Origin: Eledone cirrhosa
Lineage: Eukaryota
Assembly (NCBI GenBank): GCA_964016885.1
Contig: OZ024741.1
Span: 292,392,001 to 292,456,000, forward strand
Reading direction: 5' to 3'
Length of the DNA: 64,000 nucleotides
A program made the position numbers and the translations under genes. Below, one piece after another: positions 7,488 to 62,855 of the stretch; position 1 is the stretch's first letter; the number at the start of each line of letters is the position of its first letter. The notes beneath the pieces were generated by a model that was given only the letters and a program-made list of their open reading frames with translations, had not been told where the DNA came from and searched no databases.

Positions 7488-10400
7488 GGGCATCCAGCCC
7501 CATTTTAGAAATAATGGGGCTGGATGCCCGATCGCGCAGTTAAACCACTGGGAGTGAAGAACCCCTAGCCCTTTTCAGGGCATTTTTCTTCTAGAAGGCA
7601 TCTTAGGAAACTGGGTTAACTCCGACATAAAACCTGCAGCTCAGTAGTTACCGATGATGTTGATCTTTTCTTCTTTTCGGGTTATAGCTACTGTCGCTCA
7701 GAGAGTGGGATTGGCTCAGTGCACAGTTTTCCTCACTTTAAAAATATTCGTCACGCACAGGCATTGCACGATTGCATTAATTAATAATTATTAACAGTGT
7801 ATTATTATTATTATTATTCTTACTATTATTATTACATTTTTTTTCTTTTTTCCCAATTCAATGATGTTCCAGAAGAATATAAAAGAGATAATTGGCAATT
7901 TAGGTTCTGGAACAAAAAAGATAATTGGCAATAAGGGCAGGGGCACCAGGTTATCACAGCCTGGGCCCGCTCGTCATCGTGCCACTGTAATAGAGCCAAA
8001 CAAGGCATTTAGTCTTGGCTGCTGGAACGTACGGACGCTGCTTGACAGGGATTTCTTGGAGTGTCCTGAACGAAGGACCGCTCTTGTTGCAAAGGAGCTT
8101 CGACGTTACGATCTTCACATTGTGGCTTTATCTGAGACGAGGTTAGCTGGAGATGGTCATCTTACAGAATTGTGTGGAGAATATACATTCTTCTGGAAAG
8201 GAAGAGATGAAGGAACCAGAAGAGAAGCTGGGGTAGCATTTGCTGTTAAGACTGTTCTTGTGAATAAATTAGAAGAATTCCCAGTAGGGATTAGTGAGCG
8301 TCTTATGTCCATGAGAATTCCGCTGGACAAAGGAAGATATGCGACCCTGGTGAGTGTGTATGCTCCAACTATGAATTCTGTCGATGAAGAAAAGTGTCCT
8401 TTTACCATGCCTTGAAAGGTGTTTTAAGAAATATCCCTCAGGCAGACAAAGTCATCGTGCTTGGTGACTTTAATGCTAGCGTGGGTAGGGATTTTGACAC
8501 ATGGAATGTAATCGGAAGGCATGGGGTGGGAAAGTGTAACAACAATGGTATGCTCCTGCTGCAGATGTGTGAGGAGCTGGATCTGTGTGATACCAACACC
8601 ATGTTCCAACAAAAGAACAAATTCAAGACCACATGGATGCATCCTGCATCCATGGAATGACATCTTTTGGACTACGTCCTAGTCAGGATGCGAGACAGAC
8701 AGGATGTGCAGTGTGTTCGTGCTCTTCGTGGAGCTGAGTTCTGGACGGAACACCGCCTGGTACGCGCAAAAGTGAAACTCATCACTAAATGTAAAATTCA
8801 GGCTCCTGGTGTTGCCCTGCCCAAAAGATTGAATGCTGCTCGTCTTAAGGATAAAAATGTGAAGAGTACATTGGAAGAAGAGATGCAGGTTGCAGATCTT
8901 GGTGAGGATTGGCCAACCATTAAAAAGTCGGTTTATGATGTAGGCAGGCGTGTTCTTGGATTGGTGCAGAGAAAACATCAGGACTGGTTTAATGAGAATG
9001 ATGTACATATAGAAGACTTGTTGGCTGATAAGATGCGTGCTCTGTCACGCTACTTGACGGCAAAACCACTGGAGAGGAATACGTTGCATGAGGAACTCAA
9101 GGATGTAAAATCACGTGTTAGGCGGAGTCTTTCTCAGATGAAGGATCAGTGGTGGAGTGAGAAGGCTGGTGAGATACAAACTGCGTCAGATTCCAATAAC
9201 ACAAAGCTGTTGTACAGTCTCTTGCGTTAGGTTTATGAACCATCTTCTTCTCTAGTGACACAGCTTCGCAGCAAGGATGGCAAATAACTTCTTCGTGACT
9301 CACAAGGAATTCTACGAAGGTGGCGAGAGCACTTTGATGATCTTTTGAATCAGCCGTCTGTCGTCAATGAAGATTTCCTCAATCTCATTCCAGAAAGTCC
9401 TGTGAAAGTAGCTCTCGCAGAACCCCCGACGCTTGTGGAGGTTGCAGTGGCTATCTCGAAGCTGAACAGTGGAAGGTCTCCAGGTATGGATGGCATACAT
9501 GCTGAGCTCCTACAATAGGGTGGTGAGAGACTCCTGCAACATCTTCACTCTTTGTTTGGCAGGATATGGGCTAATGAATCAGTACCTGAGGACTGGAGAG
9601 ATGCAGTAATGGTGGTCTTGTACAAGGGAAAGGGTAACAGGAATGATTGTGGGAACTACAGAGGTATATCATTGCTTTCTGTCGTAGGGAAAGTTTTATG
9701 TAGGGTGCTTCTGGACCGTCTGCTGACACACATTGCAGATTGTGTTCTTCCTGAAAGTCAATCTGGTTTTCGTGCTGGACGCGGCACTACTGATATGATC
9801 TTCTCAGCTAGACAGCTCCAGCAGAAGTGCATGGAACAAGGCTTGGATCTGTATCAGGTTTTTGTCGATCTGACAAAAGCTTTCGATACTGTTAACAGAA
9901 ATGCATTATGGAAGGTTCTCCAGAAACTTGGTTGCCCTGATAAGTTCCTTGCTTTAGTTAGGTCTTTCCATGACGACATGAAGGCTTGGGTTAATGTCGG
10001 AGGTAACATGTCGGAGCCTATCTCAGTAAAAAATGGAGTGAAACAGGGGGATATTCCAGCACCAACCCTGTTTGCCATATACTTTGCAATGGTTTTCTGT
10101 ATTGCATTCAGGAATTGCGAGCATGGTGTTTACATCCGATATCGAACCTCAGGCAGCATATTTAACATCAGGCGCTTCGCTGCAAAGACAAAAGTATTTA
10201 CATCAATCATAAGAGACCTCTTGTATGCAGATGATTGCAATCTTGTAGCGCACACAGAGAGCGATATGCAGCACATTTTGAATGCATTTTCTGACGCTTG
10301 CACTGCCCTAGGATTGACTGTCAGTCTCAAGAAAACCGTCGCCATGTACCAACCTGCCCCTGGTAAGCAGTACAGTGAACCAAATATCTATGTGTATGGT

Positions 10401-11663
10401 AAACAACTTGGAGTGGTTGATCAGTTTGTCTACCTGGGAAGCACTGTCAATCGTTACAGCAACCTTGATAGTGAAATCTCACTTAGGATTAGGAAAGCAA
10501 GTGATGCTTTCGGAAAGCTAGAAAGGCGACTCTGGGGTCGGCGAGACATATGCAAGAAGACAAAGGTAAAGGTGTACAAGGCATGTGTGCTCTCTTGTCT
10601 TCTTTATGCCTGCGAGACCTGGGTCACATATCGACACCACCTTATGCAATTGGAGCGTTTCCATCAGATGTGTCTCAGACGGATCCATGGCGTTCACTGG
10701 AGGGACCACACCAGTGATGTCGAGATTTTGGAAAGCTCTATGTGTGACAGTATAGAAGCTTTTGTGACTAAGCAACGACTCCGTTGGAGTGGTCACCTTG
10801 CCAGGATGAAGGATTCTAGAATACCAAAACAACTCTTTTATGTAGAGTTGGTTAAAGGAAAACGACTGCCACATAAACCAAAAAAGAGGTATAAGGATTC
10901 CTTGAAAGCCTCTTTGAAAGACACTAACATCTCTGCTGATACATGGGAAAATATTGCTGCTGATCGTAATAAATGGAGAAAGACTGTATATGAGGGAAAA
11001 GTTGCCTTTGAGGCATCTTGAATCGCATACGAGAAAGTAAAGCGGGATGTGAGGAAGGGCATTGCTGTTGCACTTCCAGACGGCGAGGGTCCTCCTATGG
11101 TGCTGACATGCAGCGTCTGTGCGAGACTCTGCCTAAACTGGACTCGAAAGTCATCTTCCCAGTCATAAAGTAAGACCAGTGGTTGACTACCAGGCTGCTG
11201 TTGGAGATGCTACTCATCATGCTTGCCAAGCATGTGGTAGAGAATGTAAATCAGGAAGAGGGCTCAAGCGACATGCAAAAGTACACAAACTCCAACCACA
11301 GCCGGCTATTCGCAGTGAATGTTTTGGTTGCCGACTCTGTGCAAGACATTTTAGATCATTGGCTGGGCTAAAAAGCCACTTTCGATCGCAGCGTTGTTAG
11401 TTGCTATCGTGTGTGTGTGTGTGTATAGATATGTTTATGTGGGTGCGTGTGTGTGTGTATATATATATATATGTATATTATTATTGTTGTTGTTGTCGTT
11501 ATTATTATTGTTGTTATTATTATTATTATTGTTATTAATATATATGTATGTGTATGTATATGTGTGTGTATATGTATATATATATATGTATGTATATATG
11601 TGTATATATATATTTTTTTTTCTCGTGCAATGGCCGTACTCGATAACGAGGGGGCACCCATCA
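7488..11663 (+). mobile_element. Near-full-length RTE-clade LINE
   Basis: Non-repetitive 5' UTR-like segment from ~7490; APE + RT + zinc-finger coding region; RTE-like 3' tail gcaatggccgtactcgataacgagggggcacccatc at ~11627-11663. Confidence 0.85.
7861..11400 (+). pseudogene. RTE ORF: apurinic endonuclease, reverse transcriptase and C-terminal zinc fingers, disrupted
   Basis: APE motifs CWNVRTL, ALSETR, SVYAPT, LGDFNA, DYVLV. RT motifs NYRGISLLS, QSGFR, FVDLTKAFD, GVKQG, LLYADD, YLGS, LRWSGH. Frameshift near 8400; in-frame stops near 9230, 9285, 9516 and 11021; frameshift near 11135. Confidence 0.93.
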
Positions 11664-11978
11664 TATATATATATGTATATATTCATGTATATATATATAT
11701 GTATATATTCATGTATATATATATATATGTATATGTATATATTCATGTATATATATATATGTATATATTCATGTATATATATGTATATATTCATGTATAT
11801 GTATATATAGGAGGTGAGTTTTATTGTAGTACAATAAAGCAATGCAGATAAGCAATGCGGATAAGAAGCACTCTACAGTTTGTAGGACTGGAGTATACAT
11901 AATATATAAGAACAAAGATATGTTGATTTAAAACTGCACTATCCACAAGTGTTTTTTAACCTTCATATCATGTCTTCC

Positions 11979-12049
11979 TATTTTATCTGATGAAAACACA
12001 AATATTATTGCATGATGATATTTGTTTTTGAAATGCGCATAATAAAATA
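11979..12049 (+). ncRNA. Minimal type I hammerhead ribozyme in a short PLE-derived element (element ~11925-12085)
   Basis: Stem I tattttat (11979-86)/ataaaata (12042-49); core CTGATGA 11987-93; long stem II; GAAA 12030-33; palindromic stem III aTGCGCAt; predicted cleavage AUA^ after 12041. Confidence 0.8.
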
Positions 12050-12212
12050 CATGGAACTCTTTTAACCATCTTTTGTTCTTATATATTATATATATATATA
12101 TTCATGTATATATATATGTATGCATGTATTCATGTATATATATATATTTATGCATATGTGTATGTATGTATATATTCATGTATATATATATATATGTATG
12201 TATGCATACATG

Positions 12213-24473: not shown

Positions 24474-24900
24474 CCGTTTTACATCTGTTCTTCCATGCTA
24501 GCATGGGTTAGACGGGTTGTCCTGTTGTGGGCAGTGCCCGGTCGGCTAACCATGTCTTGCTCATACGGGAACTGGATTTGGCTTGATTTCTACAGTTGGA
24601 TGCCCTTCCTAACACCAACCTCATTTACAGTGAGTGCTGGGTGCTTTTTTTACATGACACCTACATGTCCACTTCACAGTGTGGGCTGGGTGCTTTTTTG
24701 CCGTGGCACCTCCACGACCACTTTACAGTAGAATGATAGGGACCACAGTCCCATCATCTGATTTCTACAGCTGAGTAAGCTGGAGCAATATGAAATAAAG
24801 TGTCTTGTACAAGGAAACAACACATCACCCGGTCTGAGAATTGAACTCGCAACCTTTTGATTGCAAGCCCAATTCTCTAACCACTAAGGCATGCACCTTC
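24441..24900 (-). mobile_element. Full-length tRNA-headed SINE with RTE-like tail (family C)
   Basis: Reverse-complement copy of 30790-31232; A- and B-box head, (GAT)n tail. Confidence 0.8.
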
Positions 24901-24933
24901 ATATATATATATATATATATAAGGAGTACCATG

Positions 24934-25004
24934 TATTTTATTATGCGCATTTCAAAAACAAATATCATCATGCAATAATATTTGTGTTTTCATCAGATAA
25001 AACA
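24934..25004 (-). ncRNA. Minimal type I hammerhead ribozyme, copy 2 (element ~24922-25048)
   Basis: Reverse complement of 11979-12049; core, stem II and TGCGCA stem III unchanged; flanked by (TA)n. Confidence 0.8.
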
Positions 25005-25044
25005 GGAGGACATGATATGAAGGCTAAAAAACACTTGTGGATAG

Positions 25045-25084
<40 letters not shown>

Positions 25085-26504: not shown

Positions 26505-26568
26505 GCATACATATATCTGTGTGTATATATGTATATATATATATATATATATACACATTTGTGTGTCA

Positions 26569-27466
26569 TCATCATCATCATCATCAACGTTTAACGTCCG
26601 TGTTCCACGCTTGCATGGGTTTGGACGGGGGTTTTCCCACTTGAGGCAAGAGTGGTTGTCTTGCTCGCATAGGACTGTCTGGCAGGTTTTCTACAGCTGG
26701 ATGCCCTTCCTAACACCAACCACATTTACAGTGTGGGTCTGGGAGGTTTTTACCGTGTTGCCTACACGGCCACATTACAGCGTGTGCTGTGTGTTTTTTT
26801 GTCGTGACACCTACACGATCTCATTTGTTTCGGCCTGGATGGTGTGGCACCAACATAACTTTACATAGAAGGGGGCGGTGTGGATGGGGTGGGGGTGTAT
26901 TTTTTTAGAGATGCCTACTGACTGTAGTAGGTTTTACTATGTATTTAGGTAAGGCGGGTCTTCTCTATTACTGAGTACCGCCAAAGGTCTCGGTCCAGTG
27001 ACATTGTCTTGGAGAGGTGTAAGTGTGTGAGGTCGGAGTTTATCAGCTCGTCCCAGGTTTTTCTAGGTCTGCCTATTCCGTGGCTACCGTCTATCTTTAT
27101 TGCCCTGCACCTTGTTATACAGCTATCGTCTTTCATGCGCATCACGTGTCCATACCAACGTAGCCTTCTCTCGAGTAAACAACATCTGATCCCTCTTATT
27201 TCTAATTTTTTCCTTAGTTCGTTTATGCTTTGCCGTTCACGTATATTACTATTACACATCCAGCGGGGCATGCAACCTTCGTTCCTCTCTAGTCTGCATA
27301 TATCCTCTGCACACAATGCCCACGTCTCACTGCCATGCAACATTGTTGTGTGTGTATATGTATATATATATAAATATATACACACATTTGTTTGTGTGTA
27401 TATATATATATAAATATATACACACATTTATGTGTGTATATATATATATAAATATATACACACAGT

Positions 27467-27497
<31 letters not shown>

Positions 27498-28680
27498 GAA
27501 TATATACACACATTTATGTGTGTGTCATCATTTCATTTCATTTTATGTCCACTTTTTCCTTGCTTTTAAGGGTGGGACGGGAACTGATTCTGGCTTAATT
27601 TCTACAGCTGGATGCCCTTCCTAACACCAACCTCATTTACAGTGAGTGCTGGGTGCTTTTTCCGTGGCACCTGCACGACCACTTTGCAGTGGAATAATAG
27701 GGACCCTAGTCCTATTATCTCATTTCTACAGCTGAGTAAACTGGAGCAATGTGAAATAAAGTGTCTTGCTCAAGGAAACAACACATCACCTGGTCTGAGA
27801 ATTGAACTCACAACCTTTCGATTGCAAGGCCAATGCTCTAACCACTAAGCCATGTGCCCCCATAAATGTGTGTATATATATATATATATAAATACACATA
27901 TTTATGTGTATATATATATATATAAATATACCTGGGCATTGTGTGCAGAGGATATACGCAGACGAGAGAGGAACGAAGCTTGCATGCTCCGCTGGATGTG
28001 TAACAGTAATATACGTGAACGGCAAAGCATAAACGAACTAAGGAAAAAATTAGAGATAAGAGGGATCAGATGTTGTTTACTCGAGAGAAGGCTGCGTTGG
28101 TATGGACACGTGATGCGCATGAAAGTCGATAGCTGTATTACAAAGTGCAGGGCAATAAAGATAGACGGTAGCCACGGAATAGGCAGACCTAGAAAAACAT
28201 GGGATGAGCTGATAAACTCCGACCTCACACACTTACACCTCTCCAAGACAATGTCACTGGACCGTGACCTTTGGCGGTACTCAGTAACAGAGAAGACCCG
28301 CCTTGCCAGTAGGCATCTCTAACAAAATACACCCCGTCCCGCCACCACCCCCACCCCATCCACACCACCCCGTTCTATGTAAAGTTATGTTGGTGCCGCG
28401 CCATCCAGGCCGAAACAAATGAGATCGTATAGGTGTCACGACAAAAAAACACACAGTCCACGCTGTAATGTGGCCGTGAAGGCAACACGGTAAAAACCTC
28501 CCAGACCCACACTGTAAATGTGGTTGGTGTTAGGAAGGGCATCCAACTGTAGAAAACCTGCCAGACAGTCCTATGCGAGCAAGACAATCACTCTTGCCTC
28601 AAGTGGGACTACCCCCGTCCAAACCCATGCAAGCGTGGAACACGGACGTTAAACGTTGATGATGATGATGATGATGATGA
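26569..28680. repeat. Long inverted repeat (arms ~26569-27325 and ~27931-28680) of a SINE + RTE 3' fragment chimera
   Basis: Arms read as highly similar reverse complements; ORFs 26945-27427(-) and 27852-28322(+) encode nearly the same RTE C-terminal peptide. Confidence 0.9.
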
Positions 28681-29301: not shown

Positions 29302-30197
29302 CGAGGTGAGTCAGAAAAGTTCCAGGACTGAAGTCACAAAAGATTTATTTCAAACCCAAACTTCACACTAAGAGTTTTCTCCTTCAAAGTAATCCCCCTG
29401 GAGTCTAATGCAATTTTCCATCCTTTTCTGCCACACTTGCATGCACTCCTGGAAGGATTCTTCCAGAATCCTCCGCAGTTCCGTCGTCACGCAATTTTTG
29501 ATGTCGTCCATGTCTTCAAAACGGGTCCCCTCCGGGTCATACTCGAAGATCCATATCTCATCACCGGTGATGACTGTCCCTAGCAAGTATGGTTCGGTTT
29601 CAAGACGCTCAAGGACGTCCTGGCACACCTGCATGCGTCGACCCTTCTGGTCATCGTTCAGCAGTTTTGGCACCATCTTCGCGCTGACTTTCCGCATGTC
29701 CAAATCTTCAGTGAGAATCTTCCAGACGCTGTCCCGATTCATGCCCAGCTCATCTGCCATCAGTCGAACAGTCAGCCGACGATCGCTATGCACCATCTGC
29801 CTGACGCGCTCAACGTTGACCTCAGTCCTGGTTGTTGAGGGCCTTCCGCTCCTGGGGTCATCTTCCACGTATTCGCGTCGTTCTTTAAACATCTTGCACC
29901 ACTCAAAAACACGTGAGCGTGACATCGTCTCATCTCCATACACTTTCTGCAGCAATCCCAGTGCTTCCTACGGAGTTTTCAAGTTTGTTCGTTGCTCTGT
30001 GCTCATTGCTTGAGGACCTGAAACAGAGGACATGTATATCAAATTATGAAGAAAAAAGTTTGATCACTGCAGAGAGCTAAGGTTACAGTTACATACTCCA
30101 GGGGGATTACTTTGAAGGAGAAAACTCTTAGTGTGAAGTTTGGGTTTGAAATAAATCTTTTGTGGCATAAGTCCTGGAACTTTTATGACACACCTCG
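29302..30197 (-). mobile_element. Internally deleted mariner transposon with ~103-bp inverted termini
   Basis: TA TSDs at 29300-01 and 30198-99; TIRs cgaggtg.gtca.aaaagttccaggact. Transposase remnant has EDDPRSGRP, AKMVPKLL, ITGDEIW and a CI..QGDYFE end; the ATG at 30006 is followed by TAG at codon 13. Confidence 0.92.
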
Positions 30198-46092: not shown

Positions 46093-46133
<41 letters not shown>

Positions 46134-46267
46134 AAAGTTTTATTTAAGATTGTTGGGTTAAAACGAGTAAATATTTTATAACTGATATAAAAGCACTCAA
46201 CAGTTTCTGGAGTAGGTTTACGATATTAAACAAATGGAAACTATATTTATATTTATAAAACCATATT

Positions 46268-46333
46268 TATTTCGTTATATATATTTCTGGGATATCATAT
46301 TAAAAATATGTTATGCCTTCCTCAGACAAAATA
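46268..46333 (-). ncRNA. Minimal hammerhead ribozyme in the PLE 3' pLTR
   Basis: Reverse complement of 50092-50157. Confidence 0.7.
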
Positions 46334-47546
46334 CAATACATAAGCTGTTTTATAAATAATTAGTGACATACCTTGTGATAATGCAACTTCCTTTTAAAAA
46401 GTTGATTTGGTAGTGAAACTGTTATGATAGTTATATAGAAAGAAAACGAAGATGAGAAGAAGAAGATGAAGAGATGTATGCAAATAAAAAAAAGAAGATG
46501 AAGAGATGTATGCAAAGAAAAACAGCGGAGCGAGATAGAGAGACAAGGAGAGAGACATATCCATAATGTGTGAAGAAAAAAACATAGTAGGCTGCTTTTT
46601 GACAGATGATCATCGTATATGTGAAAAGTTAAGGGAAGGGATACAGTTAAATTAGTGTATAGGAGAAAAAGAAAGAGAGATGATATATTTAAAATATATT
46701 AAAAATATATTATGTCTCATCCATTTGAATTATCAATTTTTATGAATTAGGTATTATAATGTAAATATCAGTATTCATGAATGAGACACATATCCATAAT
46801 GTGTGAAAAAAATGACCACATGCTCAGTTAAAATTTCTTATGTCTATAAGCAAAATCTGAGATAAAACTTCAAACATAAGTATATATGCATTCTTGTGAA
46901 AAAAGAAAATAGAAGGTTATCTCAAATTCAAGTTGATAAATATAGACGCACATGTGAACCTACGTGATACGCTGCACTGATTCTTATACTTCATGAAAAA
47001 CTTCAATGCGTTAGAAAAAATTCCACCCTACATACATTTACATACATATATACATATATATATATAGACACAAAACATATAAGATATACATTAACATCTA
47101 AAATAACATTCTAGCCTCACTTGCATGATCATCGATCAAGCATAGAGTAGACAACAGATATCAATATTAAAATTCAAAACGCCAAGAATATCTTCATCAC
47201 TCTACAGAGTATCTAGGGACGCAAGAGAACATAGTATGCCACGCATATCGGTCATAGAATCAGAGTCAAAAGCAAACAAAACCAAAATTGCCTATCAATC
47301 CTTATTTAGCAGAAATCATTCAAAACTTATTCTACAAATGCTCTTATATTTATTATAGAAGTTTATCCAGCTTAAAAATGTATTCAAAAGATTGGGGACA
47401 ACGCCAATTATAGGGTAGTTTATTTAATCTCATTAATTATATATTCATGCGGAAAGGTTTTAAAAAAAAAATTGAAGGAATCGAAAGATTTATCGCCAAG
47501 TATCACAAATAGTCAAATACCTTAAGTAAATATACTACATTTTATA

Positions 47547-49184
47547 CTACATTTTAAATTTATATTTATATTTATATTTAAATGTTGAGTTCAATCTATG
47601 TCTGCAACAGCTGAATAAATTGGTTCGTAAATTAAGGGAATTTTTAGATTTTAATATAAAGAATATCTCCTCCGCGCAGAGGTCACAAGTCTCAGAAGAG
47701 GAATTAAAAGGAATCCCTTTTGAGACTATATTCCAAACCATCGAATATCCAACTTTATCATGCTTAAGTTGCCAGAGTAACCCTGACAGCGATGTTGATG
47801 ATTTTTTATTTGGATCCGTGAAAGAATTTTTGTGATTATTATAGCGAAGTTTAAATTCTGTCGAGGTGGAACCAACATAATTAAAAGAATTTAAATCAGT
47901 TCTAACATTACAGTTGTATATTATATTTTTAACTAAGCAATTGTTATTTAGCGGACATTTAGATCTATCTCTACAGTTACAGTTTTTTAGTTGAATATTG
48001 TTTAGGCTATTTTCGGTATTTTGGCTAGGTTTTAGATTCCTATTATTTATTCTATTAATATTTTGTGCTAAATTTTTGGTGGACGAGTACGTTAATTTTA
48101 TAGTATGTCTATTAAAAATTGAGTGATACTTATGTGTTCTAGGGAAGCGTTTGTCAAGAGCATTAAAAAATAGTTTAGCGATGTGGGTTTTAATGTTTAG
48201 TGAGAAAGGGGGGGCAAACCATATTATATTTCTAGTTCTATTTCTTTTCTGGTTTTTGAAATTATTGTAGTGCTTTCTATTATAGTTGTTAAAGTTGTTA
48301 CTGTAATTAAAATTGTTGTTATTTTGGTTAGTTTGTCTATTATCGATGTACATAATTTTATCACTATATCATGCTCTAGCTAAAGCTTCATTATAATACT
48401 GGGCTTTTTCGTCAAAAATATTTTTATTGGAAGAGATTCTAGAGATACGTTTTTGAACAGAGTTCACTATAGTATTGTTGACAGATCTGGGGTGATTGGA
48501 GCTAAAATTGACATAATTCAAGTTTTCATTTAACTTGTGAAATGGATAGTGAAGACATGTGTTGAGATTAAATGTTACGTCTAGGAAATTGACTATTCTA
48601 TGGTTATTCTCAATTTCTATTTTTAGATTAAGGTAATTAAAAAATTGTATAATTTGTTTTCTTTTCTTATTTAGTTCAGAGTTATTATTTTCAATAAGTA
48701 AAAGCATGTCATCTCTATATAAACCTCCGGTAACACCGGGTATTTTCCTATGCAGCGAATTAATTATAAATAGGCCCACAAGGTCCGTTACCTGAGCTGA
48801 GTCTGATGATCCCATAGTAATGTCAAAATTATTATCTCTATCTGCCCTAGTCCATAGTTGGTTATTAAATTCTATCAAAGTTTTCCTTGCCGATAATATA
48901 ATGTGCATTTCATTGCTAGTTAGGTCTGTATGCTTGAATGCGTAATTTAGTGTCTTATTAAGTAGATTAGGGGTAATGGATGAATAGTAGTTAGCAATAT
49001 CTAGTTGAATAAATTTATTATTATTGTTATATTTAATTTCATTAAACCACTCAATGACCTCCCCAGTTCCCTTCCACAAGGTCAAGCCAGGCAAACAATT
49101 CAAGTCCTTAATTTGCTGTATCACTCTGTCTAGAATGTTCTTGCTAAGTTTACCCAGGTCAGATTTTGATGGTGCAATCAACCT
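47547..49184 (-). pseudogene. PLE reverse transcriptase + GIY-YIG endonuclease, 5'-truncated, one in-frame TGA
   Basis: RT motifs QLDIANYYSSI, ITMGS, GLYRDD, VNFLDVTF, SNHP. Linker IIWFAPPFS, CNCRDRSKCPL. EN NIIY...YVGST..FKLRYNNH, CDLC..E, CRH. The two ORFs share one frame, separated by TGA at 48369-71. Confidence 0.92.
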
Positions 49185-50091
49185 GTGGCATACTATGTTC
49201 TCTTGCGTCCCTAGATACTCTGTAGAGTGATGAAGATATTCTTGGCGTTTTGAATTTTAATATTGATATCTGTTGTCTACTCTATGCTTGATCGATGATC
49301 ATGCAAGTGAGGCTAGAATGTTATTTTAGATGTTAATGTATATCTTATATGTTTTGTGTCTATATATATGTATATATGTATGTAAATGTATGTAGGGTGG
49401 AATTTTTTCTAACGCATTGAAGTTTTTCATGAAGTATAAGAATCAGTGCAGCGTATCACGTAGGTTCACATGTGCGTCTATATTTATCAACTTGAATTTG
49501 AGATAACCTTCTCTTTTCTTTTTTCACGAGAATGCATATATACTTATGTTTGAAGTTTTGTCTCAGATTTTGCTTATAGACCTAAGAATTTTTAACTGAG
49601 CATGTGGTCATTTTTTTCACACATTATGGATATGTGTCTCATTCATGAATACTGATATTTACATTATAATACCTAATTCATAAAAATTGATAATTCAAAT
49701 GGATGAGACATAATATATTTTTAATATATTTTAAATATATCATCTCTCTTTCTTTTTCTCCTATACACTAATTTAACTGTATCCCTTCCCTTAACCTCTC
49801 ACATATACGATGATCATCTGTCAAAAAGCAGCCTACTATGTTTTTTTCTTCACACATTATGGATATGTGTCTCTCTCCTTGTCTCTCTATCTCGCTCCGT
49901 TGTTTTTCTTTGCATACATCTCTTCATCTTCTTTTTTTTATTTGCATACATCTCTTCATCTTCTTCTTCTCATCTTCGTTTTCTTTCTATATAACTATCA
50001 TAACAGTTTCACTACCAAATCAACTTTTTAAAAGGAAGTTGCATTATCACAAGGTATGTCACTAATTATTTATAAAACAGCTTATGTATTG

Positions 50092-50157
50092 TATTTTGTC
50101 TGAGGAAGGCATAACATATTTTTAATATGATATCCCAGAAATATATATAACGAAATA
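50092..50157 (+). ncRNA. Minimal hammerhead ribozyme in the inverted pLTR
   Basis: Stem I tattttgt/acgaaata; core CTGAGGA 50100-06; stem II ggcataacatatt-ttt-aatatgatatccc; GAAA 50138-41; palindromic stem III atatatat; AUA^ after 50149. Confidence 0.7.
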
Positions 50158-50335
50158 AATATGGTTTTATAAATATAAATATAGTTTCCATTTGTTTAAT
50201 ATCGTATATATATATATATATATATATTAGGTGGGTCGCCAATATATATCAGTGGGGGGGGGGGGTAGCCACAATTACAAAAGGTACTCAATACATTAAT
50301 AGACTATAAGCATATTTTATTTCTATAAAAATGAC

Positions 50336-50380
50336 TTCGACAGGACTAGAACTGTTTCATTTGTTAGAAATCCTCAGGAA
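50336..50380 (-). ncRNA. Minimal hammerhead in a small fold-back relic (~50314-50417)
   Basis: Minus strand: ttc-CTGAGGA-tttctaacaaat-GAAACAG-ttctagtc-CTGTC^gaa; stem II weak; stem III near-palindromic. Confidence 0.55.
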
Positions 50381-50507
50381 TGAAACAGTTCTGCAGAAAT
50401 CATTTCAATAATAAAATCTCTCTCTCTCTGTATATATTTATATATATATTTCGTTTTTTAATTTATTTTGAAAGATTTGTTATCTGAAAACGTGTGTTGA
50501 AACAGAT

Positions 50508-56745: not shown

Positions 56746-58827
56746 TACTATTACCACCAGCACCAACATAACCTCCATCAAGACCAGCATTAACATCACC
56801 TCCATCAATATGATATCCATTGCAACACTAATTCTATCATCATTACTGCCATCAACAACCTTAACATCAACACCAATGCTACGAATATGACTTCCAGTTC
56901 AGTACTAATATCAACAATAATATGAACACTACCAACACCATCAATATCCTTACCACTACCACTACAACAACAGCAACAACAAACTATACGACCACCAAAT
57001 GCTACTACAACAATTGAAACACTGCAATACACCACTATCAACAACAACTATAAAAACAATATGAATAAATAAATGAATATGCTAATACTGCAAATTTTCA
57101 CAACTGTCCTCTAGATACTATAAACACTTGAATTTACTATTCCATATTTATATATTTTTTGCTACATCATTAAGTTAAAGGTGTTAAGAGTGAAGCCATT
57201 TTGAGTGGTTCATTCACTTATCAAAGTGTTTCTCTTGTCTAGATATCCCTGGGTTAGAGAAAAGGTCAGTATTTCTGGGAGAGAGACAAGTAGTACAAGG
57301 AATTGCAAAGAACATCAGCAATGCTAGCTTCAAAAGACCCCCCAACCTCCACCTCACCCAGCTCCATTTGTAGGTTTGATGGATATTGACTCCTTCATCC
57401 ACACTTTTAGACAATATTGTTTTTGTCTTGTCAGGGTGTCTATCTACCCGGAGGTATAACTAGGGAAAATAGTACCCATGATAAGCAGCAAAATTGCACA
57501 CCTGCCCAAACATGATACTTATCCTTTAGATAACCATAAAATCAGCTTCAAAATACCAATTGTATTCGTTCATTTTTTAATTGGAAATAATACAGAAAAA
57601 TTAAACTGCATCTTCCTTGCTTTTACTTATGTTAACTTGTCTATAATTGGTAAAAGTGATTCCCCTCCCCTTCAAGTGCTGTCCATGGCACATGCCATGC
57701 TTGCCATACACTAGTTATGACTGTATATCTACTCTCCACACACACCAAGGTGAGACCCTAAAGTGGTTGACCATTTAGTCAATGATAGGTCAATTAAGCA
57801 TGTATGTACACAAACACATATATTTAGTAGTATCTAAGACTAGATTCCTTAATGTTCTGTTGGTTTCTATTTGAAGATGGGTTTGATTTGAGGGAGGTTT
57901 GGCTGCTCTTTTCAGTTGGTTGAGTGACCACATTAGCTCAGACAGTTGAGCCTCAGTTCAATTCTGATAGAGCTGACCTATGGTCACATGCATTCTCGTC
58001 AAATAATCGTGTTCTTGTTTTATATGTATATTTATGTACTGTATATACTTGAATATAAGCAAATCTGAATATGTCTGAGAAATAGGTGAAAATCTAGATG
58101 CCATTTATAAACTGAGGCAGCTAAGCAACACATTGTTTGATGGTGTATATAAGCCACCCTCCCATTTTACCATAGATTTTTGGGTCACCTATTCATAGGA
58201 TTATATTTGTGTAAATACAGTATATAGAATTAAATAATCTATTTTGTTCAACCTTTTAAAGACAACAGGGAGTCATTCAAGGCTGCTATTTCTAGCATGT
58301 TACATAACACAGAGGCTCCTTTGCTAAAGTTGTGACACTACCTGTTGTTGGTAGTGGTAGAGTTTTTTGAAGATGCTGATGATGACGATGGTGATTATGA
58401 TGAGGAGTTATATTAAATGTTTGATCATAATGATGTGAATAATGATTGTGATAGTGGTCTTGGTGAAAATGATGATGATAAAAATTATTGGGAATTTATG
58501 ATTAGAAGAGAATGATAATGATGATGGTGAGAGCAATGATGCCAAAAATGGTGTTGCTGCCGATGGTGATAATGAAGAATGCAAGAAAAAATATAATCAA
58601 AAGCAAGAATAAATATCACAATAAAATAACAACAAAAATCAATAGAAAATGAACAAAAAAGAAGAGCAAGAATAAGAGCTATATTATAATACCTGTAATT
58701 CTTTGGTTCGGTGTTAATATTTGGTGAGAATAATGATAATTAGTTTGCTGGAAGAATTGTAGCCAAGTGGTTTAGAATTGGATCTCAGACAAATGTAATT
58801 ATTGTTATTAATACAAATCTAGGGAAT

Positions 58828-60060
58828 GGTGGTGGTGGTGGTGGTGTGGTTGTGGTAGAGGTGGGTAATAGGATAATTGTGGTGGTGGTGATGTGGTTGT
58901 GGTAGAGGTGGGTAATAGGGTGAACTGATGGTTGGGGTGGTATTAGGGGTGATGGTGGTGGTGGTGATGTGGTTTTGGTAGAGGTGGGTAATAGGGTGAA
59001 CTGATGGTTGGGGTGGTATTAGGGGTGATGGTGGTGGTGGTGATGTGGTTGTGGTAGAGGTGGGTAATAGGGTGAACTGATGGTTGGGGTGGTATTAGGG
59101 GTGATGGTGGTGGTGGTGGTGATGTGGTTGTGGTAGAGGTGGGTAATAGGATAATTGTGGTGGTGGTGATGTGGTTGTGGTAGAGGTGGGTAATAGGATA
59201 ATTGTGGTGGTGGTGATGTGGTTGTGGTAGAGGTGGGTAATAGGGTGAACTGATGGTTGGGGTGGTATTAGGGGTGATGGTGGTGGTGGTGATGTGGTTT
59301 TGGTAGAGGTGGGTAATAGGGTGAACTGATGGTTGGGGTGATAATAGTGGTGGTGGTAGTAGGGTAATTATGGTAGAGGTAGTTAATAGGGTGAACTGAT
59401 GGTTGGGGTGGTATTAGTGGTGATGGTGGTGGTGGTGATGTGGTTGTGGTAGAGGTGGGTAATAGGGTGGACTGATGGTTGGGGTGGTATTAGTGGTGAT
59501 GGTGGTGGTGGTGGTGATGTGGTTGTGGTAGAGGTGGGTAATAGGGTGGACTGATGGTTGGGGTGGTATTAGTGGTGATGGTGGTGGTGGTGGTGATGTG
59601 GTTGTGGTAGAGGTGGGTAATAGGGTGGACTGATGGTTGGGGTGGTATCAGTGGTGATGGTGGTGGTGGTGGTGATGTGGTTGTGGTAGAGGTGAGTAAT
59701 AGGGTGGACTGATGGTTGGGGTGGTATTAAGGGTGATGGTGGTGGTGGTGATGTGGTTGTGGTAGAGGTGGGTAATAGGGTGGACTGATGGTTGGGGTGG
59801 TATCAGTGGTGATGGTGGTGGTGGTGGTGATGTGGTTGTGGTAGAGGTGAGTAATAGTGTGGACTGATGGTTGGGGTGGTATTAGGGGTGATGGTGGTGA
59901 TGGGGGTAGTTGTGGGGTAGTTGTCGTAGAGGTAGTTAATAGGGTGGGCTGATGGTTGGGGTAATAATAGTGGTGGTGGTAGTAGGGTAATTATGGTAGA
60001 GGTAGTTAATAGGTTGGACTGATGGTTGGAGTGGTATCAGTGGTGGCAGTAGTGGTGGGG
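58828..60060. repeat. G-rich minisatellite (~70-bp unit with ~40-bp variants)
   Basis: Unit ggtggtggtgatgtggttgtggtagaggtgggtaatagggtgaactgatggttggggtggtattaggggtgat. Confidence 0.9.
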
Positions 60061-60169
60061 TGTGCAGTTGTGGTAGAGGGCTAACAGGGGGGGGGGGTGA
60101 CGGGTGGAGTGATATAAATGGTGGTTTGGTGGTGGTGGGGTGGTTGGGGTGAAATTAGTGTTGGTGGTG

Positions 60170-60685
60170 GTGGAGCAGTTATGGTAGAGGCGGGTAGTTG
60201 GGTGGAGTCATGATGGTGGTGGTGGGGCAGTTGTGGTAGAAGAGGCTAGTTGGGTGGAGTCATGATGGGGCAGTTGTGGTAGAGGAGGGTAGTTGGGTGG
60301 AGTCATGATGGTGGTGGTGGGGAAGTTGTGGTAGAGTCGGGTAGTTGTGTGGAGTGGAGTGGTGGTGGTGGGGCAGTTGTGGTAGAGGAGGGTAGTTGGG
60401 TGGAGTCATGATGGTGGTGGTGGGGAAGTTGTGGTAGAGTCGGGTAGTTGTGTGGAGTGGAGTGGTGGTGGTGGGGCAGTTGTGGTAGAGGAGGGTAGTT
60501 GGGTGGAGTCATGATGGTGGTGGTGGAGCAGTTATGGTAGAGTCGGGTAGTTGTGTGGAGTGGAGTGGTGGTGGTGGGGCAGTTGTGGTAGAGGAGGGTA
60601 GTTGGGTGGAGTCATGATGGTGGTGGTGGGGCAGTTGTGGTAGAGGAGGGTAGTTGTGTGGAGTGGAGTGGTGGTGGTGGTGGTT
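60170..60685. repeat. G-rich minisatellite with a 103-bp dimeric higher-order unit
   Basis: The ggtagagtcggg variant recurs at ~60328, 60431 and 60534, alternating with a ggtagaggaggg variant. Confidence 0.85.
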
Positions 60686-61787
60686 TTCGAAATGTTGTGG
60701 TGGGTGGAAATGAGAGTGATGGTAGTGCCAATGGTGGTGCTGCTCATTGTTGGAGGAGGTGTGTGTGTATAAGGAGAGTGGTAGATGTGGTAGTGATTGG
60801 TGTGGGAAGAAATGTGAAAGAATGGTGGTAATGGTGGTGGGAGTCATTGCGGTGCTGGATCAGGTGAAACAGAAAAATAGGAAAGTTATCTTCATTGCAA
60901 TTACAGAAACACTTTGTGTGTGTGTGTGTTTCAGTGTTTAAAGGACAATGACCATTCTGCAATTTATATGTTAATGTGTGTATATATGTACACATACTTA
61001 AATATGAGAGTGTGTATAAATATGTGAGCACTTATATATATATATATATGCCTGTGAGTGTATTTACATGTATGTGTGTGTATGTATATAGGTGTGTGTG
61101 TATGATGTATGAATATAGCTCACACATATATCACATTTATTCCATTTTCTATCATCAGTATATCAATATATATTATTAATGAAGTCAAGAAAATGGTGTT
61201 ATGAAACATTTGTTAACAGAAAGTATATGCATGCCTGCATATATATATATATATATATATACACATACACATATAAACATACACACACATAAATATATAT
61301 ATATATATATATACACATACATATAAGTATATATATATATATGTACACCAACACATAATTATATATAGCAACTAGTATATCGGCTAACGTATATGAACAT
61401 AGCCTAATATACCTAATATAGATGGAGAGAAAAACAGCTACCAAGAAAAACTAAAATAAAAACGGCCTGTTGTATTTCATATTGGTGTGCATAAGTGCAT
61501 GTAGGTGTGTATTGAAATATGTGCTTTTTTGGTGTGAATGTATGTGTTACCTCAATGCCTATACTTCAATTAACACCCATGTAGACATTTTTTAATCAAT
61601 TGCTATCACAACTTTTAATTACCACAATAATAGAAAGATTAAATAAATATAGAAAAAATGAATGCCATTTATGTGTGTGAGTGTATGTATGAAAATGAAT
61701 ATATATAAATATATATATATAGTAATAATAAAGGCGAAGACTTATGGATACCTATTATCATCACCTAACATATATATATATATATAT

Positions 61788-62280
61788 GCAAAAGTTCTAT
61801 TTAAAATTGTTGGGATACAACAAGTAAATATTTTTATAACTGATATAAAGCACTCAACAAGTATTTGGAGTAGATATACGATATTAATAAATTGAAACTA
61901 TATTTATAAAATCATATTTATTTCATTATACATATTTCAGGGATACCAAATTAAATTATGGTATACCTTCATCAGACAAAATACAATATATAACAGTTTT
62001 ACAAATAAGCTTTGACGTACCCTTTTAAAATGCAACCATTATTTTTGGAAGCCATCCTTAACACTAAGACTTATTAAAATAATATAAACAATTCACTATC
62101 CAGATGGCTTCCAAAAATAATGGTTGCATTTTAAAAGGGAACGTCAAAGCTTATTTGTAAAACTGTTATATATTGTATTTTGTCTGATGAAGGCATACCA
62201 TAATTTAATTTGGTATCCCTGAAATATGTATAATGAAATAAATATGGTTTTATAAATATAGTTTCAATTTATTAATATCG
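61788..62280 (-). mobile_element. Non-coding fold-back PLE related to the 46-50 kb element
   Basis: 178-bp arms 61879-62056 and 62103-62280; 46-nt spacer; 91-nt extension starting gcaaaagtt; (TA)n flanks; alignable to 46131-46400. Confidence 0.85.
62176..62240 (+). ncRNA. Minimal hammerhead ribozyme (mirror copy 61919-61983 on minus strand)
   Basis: Stem I tattttgt/atgaaata; CTGATGA 62184-90; stem II aggcatacca/tggtatccct; GAAA 62221-24; AUA^ after 62232. Confidence 0.75.
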
Positions 62281-62734
62281 TATATATATATATATGTATA
62301 TATATATATGTCCCACCCTTGCAAGCAGGGAGAAGCGGACGTAAAATGATGATGATGATGATGATATATATATATATTAATATTTCACCATCATTGTTTA
62401 ACGTCCATTTTCCACGTGTCTGTGTATATATATATATGTGCGGCAACACTCATCTTTTTCCATTTCTCCGAGGGTTATAAACCCCACTATCAGGCTAGAA
62501 ATTTCTTTAGTCTAAAATACGGTGAAAGCTTATAATTTCTAATTTCTAATATATATATATATATATTTGTGTGTTTATATATATATGTATGTATATAGTT
62601 AGATGTATGTATATTTATATATATATACATAGATGTATGTATATTTATATCTATCTATCTATCTATATATATATATATGTAGATTTAAAACTGCACTATC
62701 CACAAGTGTTTTTAACCTTCATATCATGTCCTCC

Positions 62735-62805
62735 TATTTTATCTGATGAAAACACAAATGTTATTGCATGATGATATTTGTTTTTGAAATGCGCATAATA
62801 AAATA
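62735..62805 (+). ncRNA. Minimal type I hammerhead ribozyme, copy 3 (element ~62682-62845)
   Basis: Same as 11979-12049 except one A>G change in stem II, which leaves a G.U pair. Confidence 0.8.
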
Positions 62806-62855
62806 CATGGAACTCATTTAACCATCTTTTGATCTTATATATTATATATATATAT

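What the first reader, a model, noticed from the sequence alone, without database searches (positions are those of the whole stretch)
61788..62280. Two independent PLE insertions share the same fold-back geometry: a fixed ~90-nt end offset and a structurally conserved ribozyme
Seen: this 0.5 kb non-coding fold-back and the 4.1 kb PLE are diverged relatives. Both start (TA)n-gcaaaagtt, have a 90-91 nt unpaired extension, and end the inverted arm at the same aatatcg|(TA)n point, although arm length differs (178 vs ~1020 bp). Their hammerheads keep the fold despite changes: G-C vs G.U in stem I, a different stem II apex, and CUGAGGA vs CUGAUGA. Inference: there are two defined priming or termination points, giving a direct clue to the poorly understood PLE integration mechanism. 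The offset is longer than the few tens of nt usually described.
Basis: partly seen in the sequence, partly recalled or inferred. Interest (0 to 1): 0.75.

Follow-up and report, generated by a model that had tools for sequence, protein, structure and literature searches.

The report
Paired stem-loops space Penelope's two ends
Both mirror-image insertions are real copies of a known type of jumping gene whose two ends each lie a few letters before one of two copies of a small stem-loop motif about 90 letters apart, so the motif likely tells the copying enzyme where to start on each strand of the cut DNA, which would explain the one-sided 'tail' these elements leave.

Summary
The geometry is real (tails 91 and 90 nt, arms 178 and 1020 bp, unrelated flanks). 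Both loci are Hydra-clade Penelope-like elements (PLEs). A one-sided tail and two reverse-transcription start sites are published (PMC8557442, PMC11167929), so that part is known. What the family data add: ended arms stop at site A or site B (40 of 40, 35 of 35 in two families); two-ended copies pair one A with one B (31 of 32 unbiased; 52 of 54 overall); either arm can reach further, which excludes snap-back copying. Each site lies about 4-8 nt before one copy of a duplicated bulged stem-loop motif (RCTC...GAGY-RCT). The ~90-nt offset is their spacing (88-94 nt), kept in three families down to 35-49% protein identity; distant marine Hydra elements carry the pair about 62 nt apart. Likely mechanism: programmed twin priming by two reverse transcriptases, one per stem-loop. 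Binding, dimer and one-RNA use are untested; folding scores are weak. No such paired signal was found in six paper searches. This scan reported the same reading before on other DNA of this genome and others.

The parts
61788..62280 (.). Small A+B fold-back insertion of a Hydra-clade PLE (family F1) in (TA)n
61788..62055 (-). B-ended arm (268 nt), element sense on the minus strand; 3' end (site B) at 61788
   Evidence: (L001), 2-nt overlap with the other arm
62054..62280 (+). A-ended arm (227 nt); 3' end (site A) at 62280; reaches about 48 nt further 5' in the element than the B arm
61788..61878 (-). A-to-B segment ('tail'), 91 nt, part of the element's 5' UTR
61849..61871 (-). Stem-loop motif 1, starts 7 nt after site A
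62171..62244 (+). Type I hammerhead in the A arm, predicted cut after 62232 (48 nt before site A)
   Evidence: core and pairing read from sequence; cleavage not tested
61915..61988 (-). Type I hammerhead in the B arm
46131..50204 (.). Large A+B insertion, other F1 subfamily
46131..46220 (-). A-to-B segment ('tail'), 90 nt; site B at 46131
46192..46213 (-). Stem-loop motif 1 of the large element (inner pair G-C where the small one has A-U)
46264..46338 (-). Hammerhead in the B arm (A.A at base of stem II)
47547..49185 (-). 5'-truncated RT + GIY-YIG ORF with one in-frame stop at 48369-48371; YRDD, CxCX5C, CxxC and CxH motifs
49185..50204 (+). Inverted A-ended arm (1020 nt); site A at 50204
   Evidence: 98.6% to the B arm
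50087..50161 (+). Hammerhead in the A arm, predicted cut after 50149
11810..12089 (.). Third A+B fold-back in the window, family F2 (about 56% protein identity to F1); stem-loop 1 at 11867-11894 on the minus strand
62690..62846 (+). Single A-ended arm of family F2 with hammerhead core at 62743

Best explanation
These are insertions of Hydra-clade Penelope-like retrotransposons whose two ends each lie about 4-8 nt before one of two copies of a bulged stem-loop motif in the 5' UTR, and they likely form by programmed twin priming: two reverse transcriptases, each predicted to sit on one stem-loop, would prime from the two strands of a cut (TA)n target. Shown: UTR order is hammerhead, site A, motif 1, site B, motif 2, ATG; ends fall at A or B; two-ended copies pair A with B; the arms have independent lengths and meet head to head. 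Inferred: the motif is an RNA stem-loop bound by the protein; the GIY-YIG domain cuts both target strands; both cDNAs run 5'-ward over the same RNA sequence (the B cDNA displacing the A cDNA if one RNA is used) and their 3' ends are joined with 0-3 nt of overlap or gap; the tail is simply the A-to-B spacing. Because inserted 3' ends lose motif 2, ORF-containing copies would need a template with the motifs downstream of a whole unit: a tandem transcript or a hammerhead-cut circle.
For: Ends: F1 arm-internal query, 43 arms: 23 at A (2 of them scored 'other' but read as A), 17 at B, 1 continues into the ORF, 2 cut by the locus end; F2, 35 arms: 23 at A (17 scored 'other' by 1-nt overrun into TA), 12 at B. 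Pairing: 60 loci chosen by ORF only: 31 A+B, 1 B+B, 0 A+A, 27 single-ended, 1 unresolved, p=1.5e-8 against 50%; ORF arm B-ended 17, A-ended 14; 40 further loci 21 A+B, 1 B+B. Arm reach in 31 of 34 short fold-backs with a clean junction: A further 13, B further 11, within 10 nt 7; in 5 the B arm holds little or nothing beyond the A-B segment. Motif: spacing 88-94 nt in 89 cassettes of three families with unalignable spacers; two-motif pattern 661 genome hits against 1 control; motif 2 of F2 and both ends of F3 were predicted before they were looked up (notes). Junction limits 4-8 nt before the motif at most sites. Base pair 1 is A-U in 19 of 19 motif-1 types and G-C in 8 of 8 motif-2 types; inner pairs of motif 1 swap A-U/G-C/G.U; loop 2-11 nt. 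Marine metagenome relatives at 32-38% identity: two motifs in 18 of 38 UTRs, one in 11, none in 9; ORF control 0 of 38 with two; 8 of 14 3' copies that end inside the contig stop 0-4 nt before a listed motif, 3 more before a motif-like start. Literature: PAc starts at two internal sites, extends both strands, needs RNA 3' of the starts, is predicted to dimerise (PMC11167929).
Against: No binding or priming assay. Folding is weak: z -0.7 to -1.5 for five cassettes, both stem-loops in the minimum-energy fold of only 2 of 5; inner pairs of motif 2 pair in only 4 of 8 types; much of the motif is invariant, so covariation rests on few events. In PAc no difference in start site between strands was seen. 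27 of 60 ORF-chosen loci show one end only, and the 23 closest F3 arms were all A-type, most without a partner within 1.5 kb. Two elements (L140, L147) join arms of different subfamilies, so two RNAs were used there. No solid pile-up of 5' truncations at site A (F1 6 of 67 vs 4.2 expected, F2 2 of 38 vs 2.4, F3 4 of 16 vs 1.0) or at the hammerhead cut. 3 of 14 metagenome ends do not fit.
Confidence: 0.7

Rival explanations
1. The motifs act as DNA: the GIY-YIG endonuclease recognises them in a double-stranded or cruciform intermediate and cuts a few bases upstream, so A and B are resolution cuts, not start sites.
For: Craig et al. ascribe the tail to endonuclease resolution (PMC8557442); the D. 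virilis endonuclease needed the tail to cut plasmids (as cited in PMC11167929); an inverted repeat with invariant letters can be a DNA site; RNA folding support is weak.
Against: Loop length varies 2-11 nt and G.U pairs occur, which suits a single strand; PAc starts reverse transcription at the tail's two ends in vitro; internal copies of both motifs survive uncut in full-length insertions.
Confidence: 0.13
2. Twin priming happens, but on two sister RNAs held by an asymmetric complex, one used at A and one at B, rather than on one RNA.
For: Chimeric elements L140 and L147; no solid collision signal at site A; arms from the same source locus would also match each other (own arm best in 33 of 43).
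Against: Near-strict A+B pairing follows directly from two motifs on one RNA and needs an extra rule with two RNAs; 5 of 31 elements have nearly non-overlapping arms as in one-RNA twin priming.
Confidence: 0.25
3. The second arm is a snap-back (self-primed) copy of the first and terminates at site A.
For: Self-priming was proposed for Adineta PLE palindromes (PMC3846280); arms of one element are usually each other's best match.
Against: In 13 of 31 short elements, this one included, each arm holds sequence that the other lacks; in 5 the arms barely overlap.
Confidence: 0.04
4. A and B are only AU-rich patches where a (TA)n primer anneals; the motifs are incidental.
For: TA or AT letters follow each junction in the template.
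Against: The match is as short as 2 nt at F1 large-subfamily site A and F3 site B; the UTR has many better AU patches that are not used; the motif-end distance is kept across unalignable families.
Confidence: 0.04

Closest known systems
Hydra clade of C-terminal-endonuclease PLEs, including Hydra-1_Obim (Craig et al. 2021, PMC8557442; passages, section 11 and supplement passages seen)
   Same: RT then GIY-YIG, RW[KR], DKT, CxCX5C, CxxC/CxH, (TA)n target, hammerhead, inverted 5'-truncated copy with a one-sided tail
   Different: The paper gives 30-40 bp tails and, in what I saw, no paired motif and no A+B pairing rule; units here are 3.3-4.3 kb against under 3 kb; the families studied here are not Hydra-1_Obim by their N-termini as printed, not aligned formally
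Poseidon element PAc of Anolis carolinensis (Frangieh et al. 2024, PMC11167929; parts 1-2 of 4 of the text, passages, supplement 1 as text)
   Same: Two internal start sites downstream of the hammerhead bound the tail; both strands extended; needed RNA lies 3' of the starts; AT-rich target
   Different: PAc starts lie in the ORF in one AC-rich stem-loop, 30-40 nt apart, with no strand preference reported; here they lie in the 5' UTR, ~90 nt apart, each before its own copy of one motif, and are paired A+B
Inverted-pLTR Penelope insertions of Adineta vaga (Arkhipova et al. 2013, PMC3846280; passages)
   Same: Head-to-head inverted pLTR, tail on one end
   Different: 31-bp tail, self-priming proposed; the arm-length data here argue against self-priming
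LINE-1 twin priming (recalled, no call)
   Same: Both target strands prime on the RNA and give an inversion
   Different: In L1 the second site is found by chance microhomology and sequence is not duplicated; here both sites are fixed and the arms usually overlap
Metazoan PLE hammerheads (Cervera and De la Pena 2014, PMC4209133; passages)
   Same: Type I motif, short stem III with palindromic loop (TATATA, TATGTA, TGCGCA); circle template proposed there
   Different: Nothing new about the ribozyme here; it does not mark the ends

Membership tests
Penelope-like elements, endonuclease-bearing | Single ORF with telomerase-related RT | tested here: met
   737-aa ORF; model pLDDT 90.5; best solved match TERT 3du5, E 2.3e-09, TM 0.35; Pfam gave no family
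Penelope-like elements, endonuclease-bearing | C-terminal GIY-YIG endonuclease | tested here: inconclusive
   IAY...YVG and conserved Y617, Y630, G632, R641, H645; no profile or fold hit to a GIY-YIG domain was obtained
Penelope-like elements, endonuclease-bearing | Partial-tandem pLTRs, inverted 5'-truncated copy, one-sided tail | tested here: met
Penelope-like elements, endonuclease-bearing | Hammerhead motif in the pLTR | tested here: met
   core and stems in three families; cleavage not testable
Hydra clade | RW[KR] motif and DKG changed to DKT | tested here: met
   RWR at 37, DKT at 118 (definition)
Hydra clade | CxCX5C linker; CxxC and CxH around the endonuclease E and N | tested here: met
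   CNCRDRSKC 596, CDLC 694, CKH 721
Hydra clade | Insertion into (TA)n | tested here: met
Hydra clade | Generally under 3 kb | tested here: not met
   ATG-to-site-A units 3.3-4.3 kb in 49 loci; the paper words this as a tendency, not a rule
Hydra clade | Placement in the RT phylogeny | not tested
   no reference set of other clades was at hand
Retrozyme or non-autonomous ribozyme element (for the 0.5 kb copy) | Own sequence, distinct from an ORF-bearing element | tested here: not met
   both arms are 3' ends of an ORF-bearing subfamily, 97-99% to L147/L156, with scattered inner ends

The most novel reading that the evidence does not exclude
Hydra PLEs use a duplicated RNA stem-loop as a ruler: a protein dimer binds both copies on one RNA (tandem or ribozyme-made circle) and starts two cDNAs from the two strands of one break, a hard-wired form of twin priming that explains the inverted pLTR, the tail and its length, and may be how all PLE tails arise.
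Probability: 0.35. Interest if true: 0.8.

Novelty: new variant of a known kind. Interest (0 to 1): 0.62.

Why it matters
How PLEs make inverted ends with a one-sided tail is an open question named as such in PMC8557442 and only partly answered in vitro in PMC11167929. A short paired motif whose spacing equals the tail gives a direct experiment (move or break one motif, read the start site) and a compact cis signal for a two-ended integration reaction. The young, abundant family with many intact ~740-aa ORFs is a ready test system.

Tried and rejected
Rfam scan: only low-complexity microRNA matches in the rows shown. Pfam: no family for the ORF. Arm-internal DNA search for the large subfamily returned nothing; the tail-containing query used instead selects B ends, so those loci were not used for the unbiased count. 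MAFFT alignment of the motifs misplaced the 5' halves and was not used for pair counts; an anchored table was used. Pile-up of 5' truncations at site A looked strong at first but was not significant in F1 or F2 when redone, nor was a pile-up at the hammerhead cut. Phase of the target cut (after T or after A) could not be told from junction letters. Sequencing runs: no RNA holder listed; two contig-only runs of unknown kind were laid and give no evidence on RNA ends. Target-site duplications were not measured because the targets are (TA)n. Larger flanks for F2 and F3 were not obtained, so their single-ended copies are known to 1.5 kb only. Rejected: one DNA duplication, snap-back, retrozyme, chance.

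Full report
Observation. The window holds a 493-bp fold-back at 61788-62280 and a 4074-bp one at 46131-50204, both in (TA)n, with unpaired extensions of 91 and 90 nt and paired arms of 178 and 1020 bp. They are 83% identical where they overlap, have unrelated flanks and each has much closer relatives on other contigs.

Identity. The large copy carries a 5'-truncated RT plus endonuclease ORF on the minus strand with one stop. Intact relatives are abundant in the 3.0-Gb genome (17,069 first-look candidates, 150 scored). An intact 737-aa member has RWR, DKT, YRDD, CxCX5C, CxxC and CxH, the features given for the Hydra clade (PMC8557442 section 11); its model matches telomerase RT best. The closest named protein is from Argonauta hians, 38%; a cephalopod host is my inference. 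The small copy is two truncated 3' ends of an ORF-bearing subfamily.

Ends are fixed. Full-length copies show the UTR order hammerhead, 48 nt, site A, site B, ATG. With queries that do not choose between the ends, 40 of 40 ended F1 arms and 35 of 35 F2 arms stop at A or B; 19 of these were binned 'other' by alignment overrun or a local change and read as A on inspection; 3 F1 arms continued or were cut by the locus end.

Ends are paired. Among 60 loci chosen only by ORF similarity, 32 showed both ends: 31 A+B, 1 B+B, no A+A (p=1.5e-8 against 50%); 13 showed only A, 14 only B, 1 neither. The ORF-bearing arm ended at B in 17 and at A in 14. Forty further loci gave 21 A+B and 1 B+B; one of the 21 (L133) is two neighbouring A+B elements merged. 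Of the two B+B cases, L206 has mirror-identical flanks and L143 has flanks of the same interrupted-TA type, which suggests later rearrangement. In F3, 15 of 20 B-ended copies showed an A-ended partner within 1.5 kb and none a B partner.

Neither arm is a copy of the other. Of 34 short fold-backs found, 31 had a clean junction: the A arm reached at least 10 nt further in 13, the B arm in 11, 7 were level; in 5 the B arm holds little or nothing beyond the A-B segment. The finding's own element is of the first kind. This excludes the self-priming model proposed for Adineta (PMC3846280 passages) for these copies and excludes 'termination' at A. The partner arm was the best match in 33 of 43 elements; 6 were near ties, 1 a merge, 1 had a deletion, and 2 (L140, L147) join different subfamilies. 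For short elements the comparison window ran over the apex, which favours self-matches.

What sets the offset. Just 3' of each site lies a copy of one motif, RCTC-C..loop..G-UN-GAGY-RCT. Motif 2 lies beyond site B, so it is never present at an inserted 3' end. A second family seen in this window (F2, about 56% protein identity) has the same two ends; I predicted its motif 2 and found it. A two-motif pattern gave 661 genome hits against 1 for the reversed control and revealed F3 (35-49% identity). I noted the predicted F3 ends first; 22 of 23 arms then ended at the predicted A, one 12 nt short, and 20 of 23 tail-bearing copies at the predicted B, 3 continuing into motif 2. Motif spacing is 88-94 nt in 89 cassettes and predicted cut to motif 1 is 50-62 nt in the 62 with a hammerhead detected. 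Junction letters bound the start to about 4-8 nt before the motif at most sites, with a few nt of spread. The first pair is A-U in all 19 motif-1 types and G-C in all 8 motif-2 types; motif 1's inner pairs swap among A-U, G-C and G.U, while motif 2's inner pairs hold in only 4 of 8. Folding energies are not significant, so the stem-loop is inferred from pairing pattern, not stability.

Generality. In marine metagenome relatives at 32-38% identity, 45 of 77 loci matched from the N-terminus and 38 had at least 150 nt upstream: 18 carry two motifs, 11 one, 9 none; spacing 55-83 nt, median 62; ORF-internal control 0 with two, reverse-complement control 1. Of 14 loci whose 3' repeat ends inside the contig, 8 stop 0-4 nt before a listed motif, 3 before a motif-like start, 3 elsewhere; these distances are lower bounds because alignments run into TA. 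So ~90 nt is a long form of a clade-wide spacing. The same kind of motif is visible in a consensus printed just before Hydra-1_Obim in the supplement of PMC8557442.

Mechanism. Shown: fixed ends, A+B pairing, independent arm lengths, motif placement. From literature: PAc starts at two internal sites bounding the tail, extends both strands, needs RNA 3' of the starts, does not need hammerhead cleavage in vitro and is predicted to dimerise (PMC11167929). Inferred: two RTs, one per stem-loop, prime from the two strands of a cut (TA)n tract and their cDNAs are joined head to head. One RNA or two is open: a collision signal at site A was seen only in F3 (4 of 16, p=0.015) and not in F1 or F2, and two chimeras used two RNAs. 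Since 3' ends lack motif 2, ORF-bearing copies would need tandem or circular templates; tandems exist (three units 4011 bp apart), and circles were proposed before (PMC4209133 passages) but have no support here. Many copies are single-ended, and one F3 subgroup is all A-type; masters that keep only motif 1 would explain this, untested.

Novelty. Tail, two start sites, hammerhead and inverted pLTR are published. A duplicated start-site motif and the A+B rule were not found in six full-text searches or in the four papers as far as I read them; subscription papers and figures are outside these searches. I reached this reading before looking at the scan's notes; the notes report the same on other DNA of this genome and twin priming in other genomes. 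They are not independent evidence; two gave leads (Hydra-1_Obim; occurrence in other animals) that I checked. Verdict: real, a new variant of a known kind, with a directly testable answer to an open mechanistic question; interest 0.62.

Noticed in passing
window 11810-12089, 62690-62846, ~24900-25080: Three more hammerhead-bearing PLE ends of family F2; the first is an A+B fold-back, the third ends about 25 nt short of site A
   Followed up: partly
L342-L364, L380, L382: An F3 subgroup is all A-ended, often single, and many copies share a 5' end next to (TA)n; B-ended copies with the same 5' end exist and could be masters that keep only motif 1
   Followed up: partly
L320-L322 (G000:C7:78.45-78.46 Mb): Three full units with 738-aa open frames in direct tandem, 4011 bp apart
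   Followed up: no
L140:2081-5037 and L147:1118-6357: Insertions that join arms of two subfamilies; in L140 the switch lies just 3' of motif 1
   Followed up: partly
L206 and L143: B+B elements with mirror-like interrupted-TA flanks on both sides
   Followed up: partly
L009:1451-1560 (minus): In F1 a 10-nt stretch after motif 1 is the reverse complement of one after motif 2 and could close a long stem around site B; seen in one fold, not kept in F2 or F3
   Followed up: partly
window 50340-50395 (minus): Hammerhead-like core inside a short inverted repeat of another dispersed repeat next to the large element
   Followed up: no
window 7795-11021: Broken endonuclease + RT ORFs of a non-LTR retrotransposon (RTE-like by recall)
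   Followed up: no
window 26566-28677: Nested long inverted repeats (96%) with RT C-terminal fragments on both strands
   Followed up: no
window 29368-29967: Tc1/mariner-like transposase fragment (label recalled)
   Followed up: no
window 58788-60777: GT-rich tandem arrays with periods of 76-79 and 103 nt
   Followed up: no
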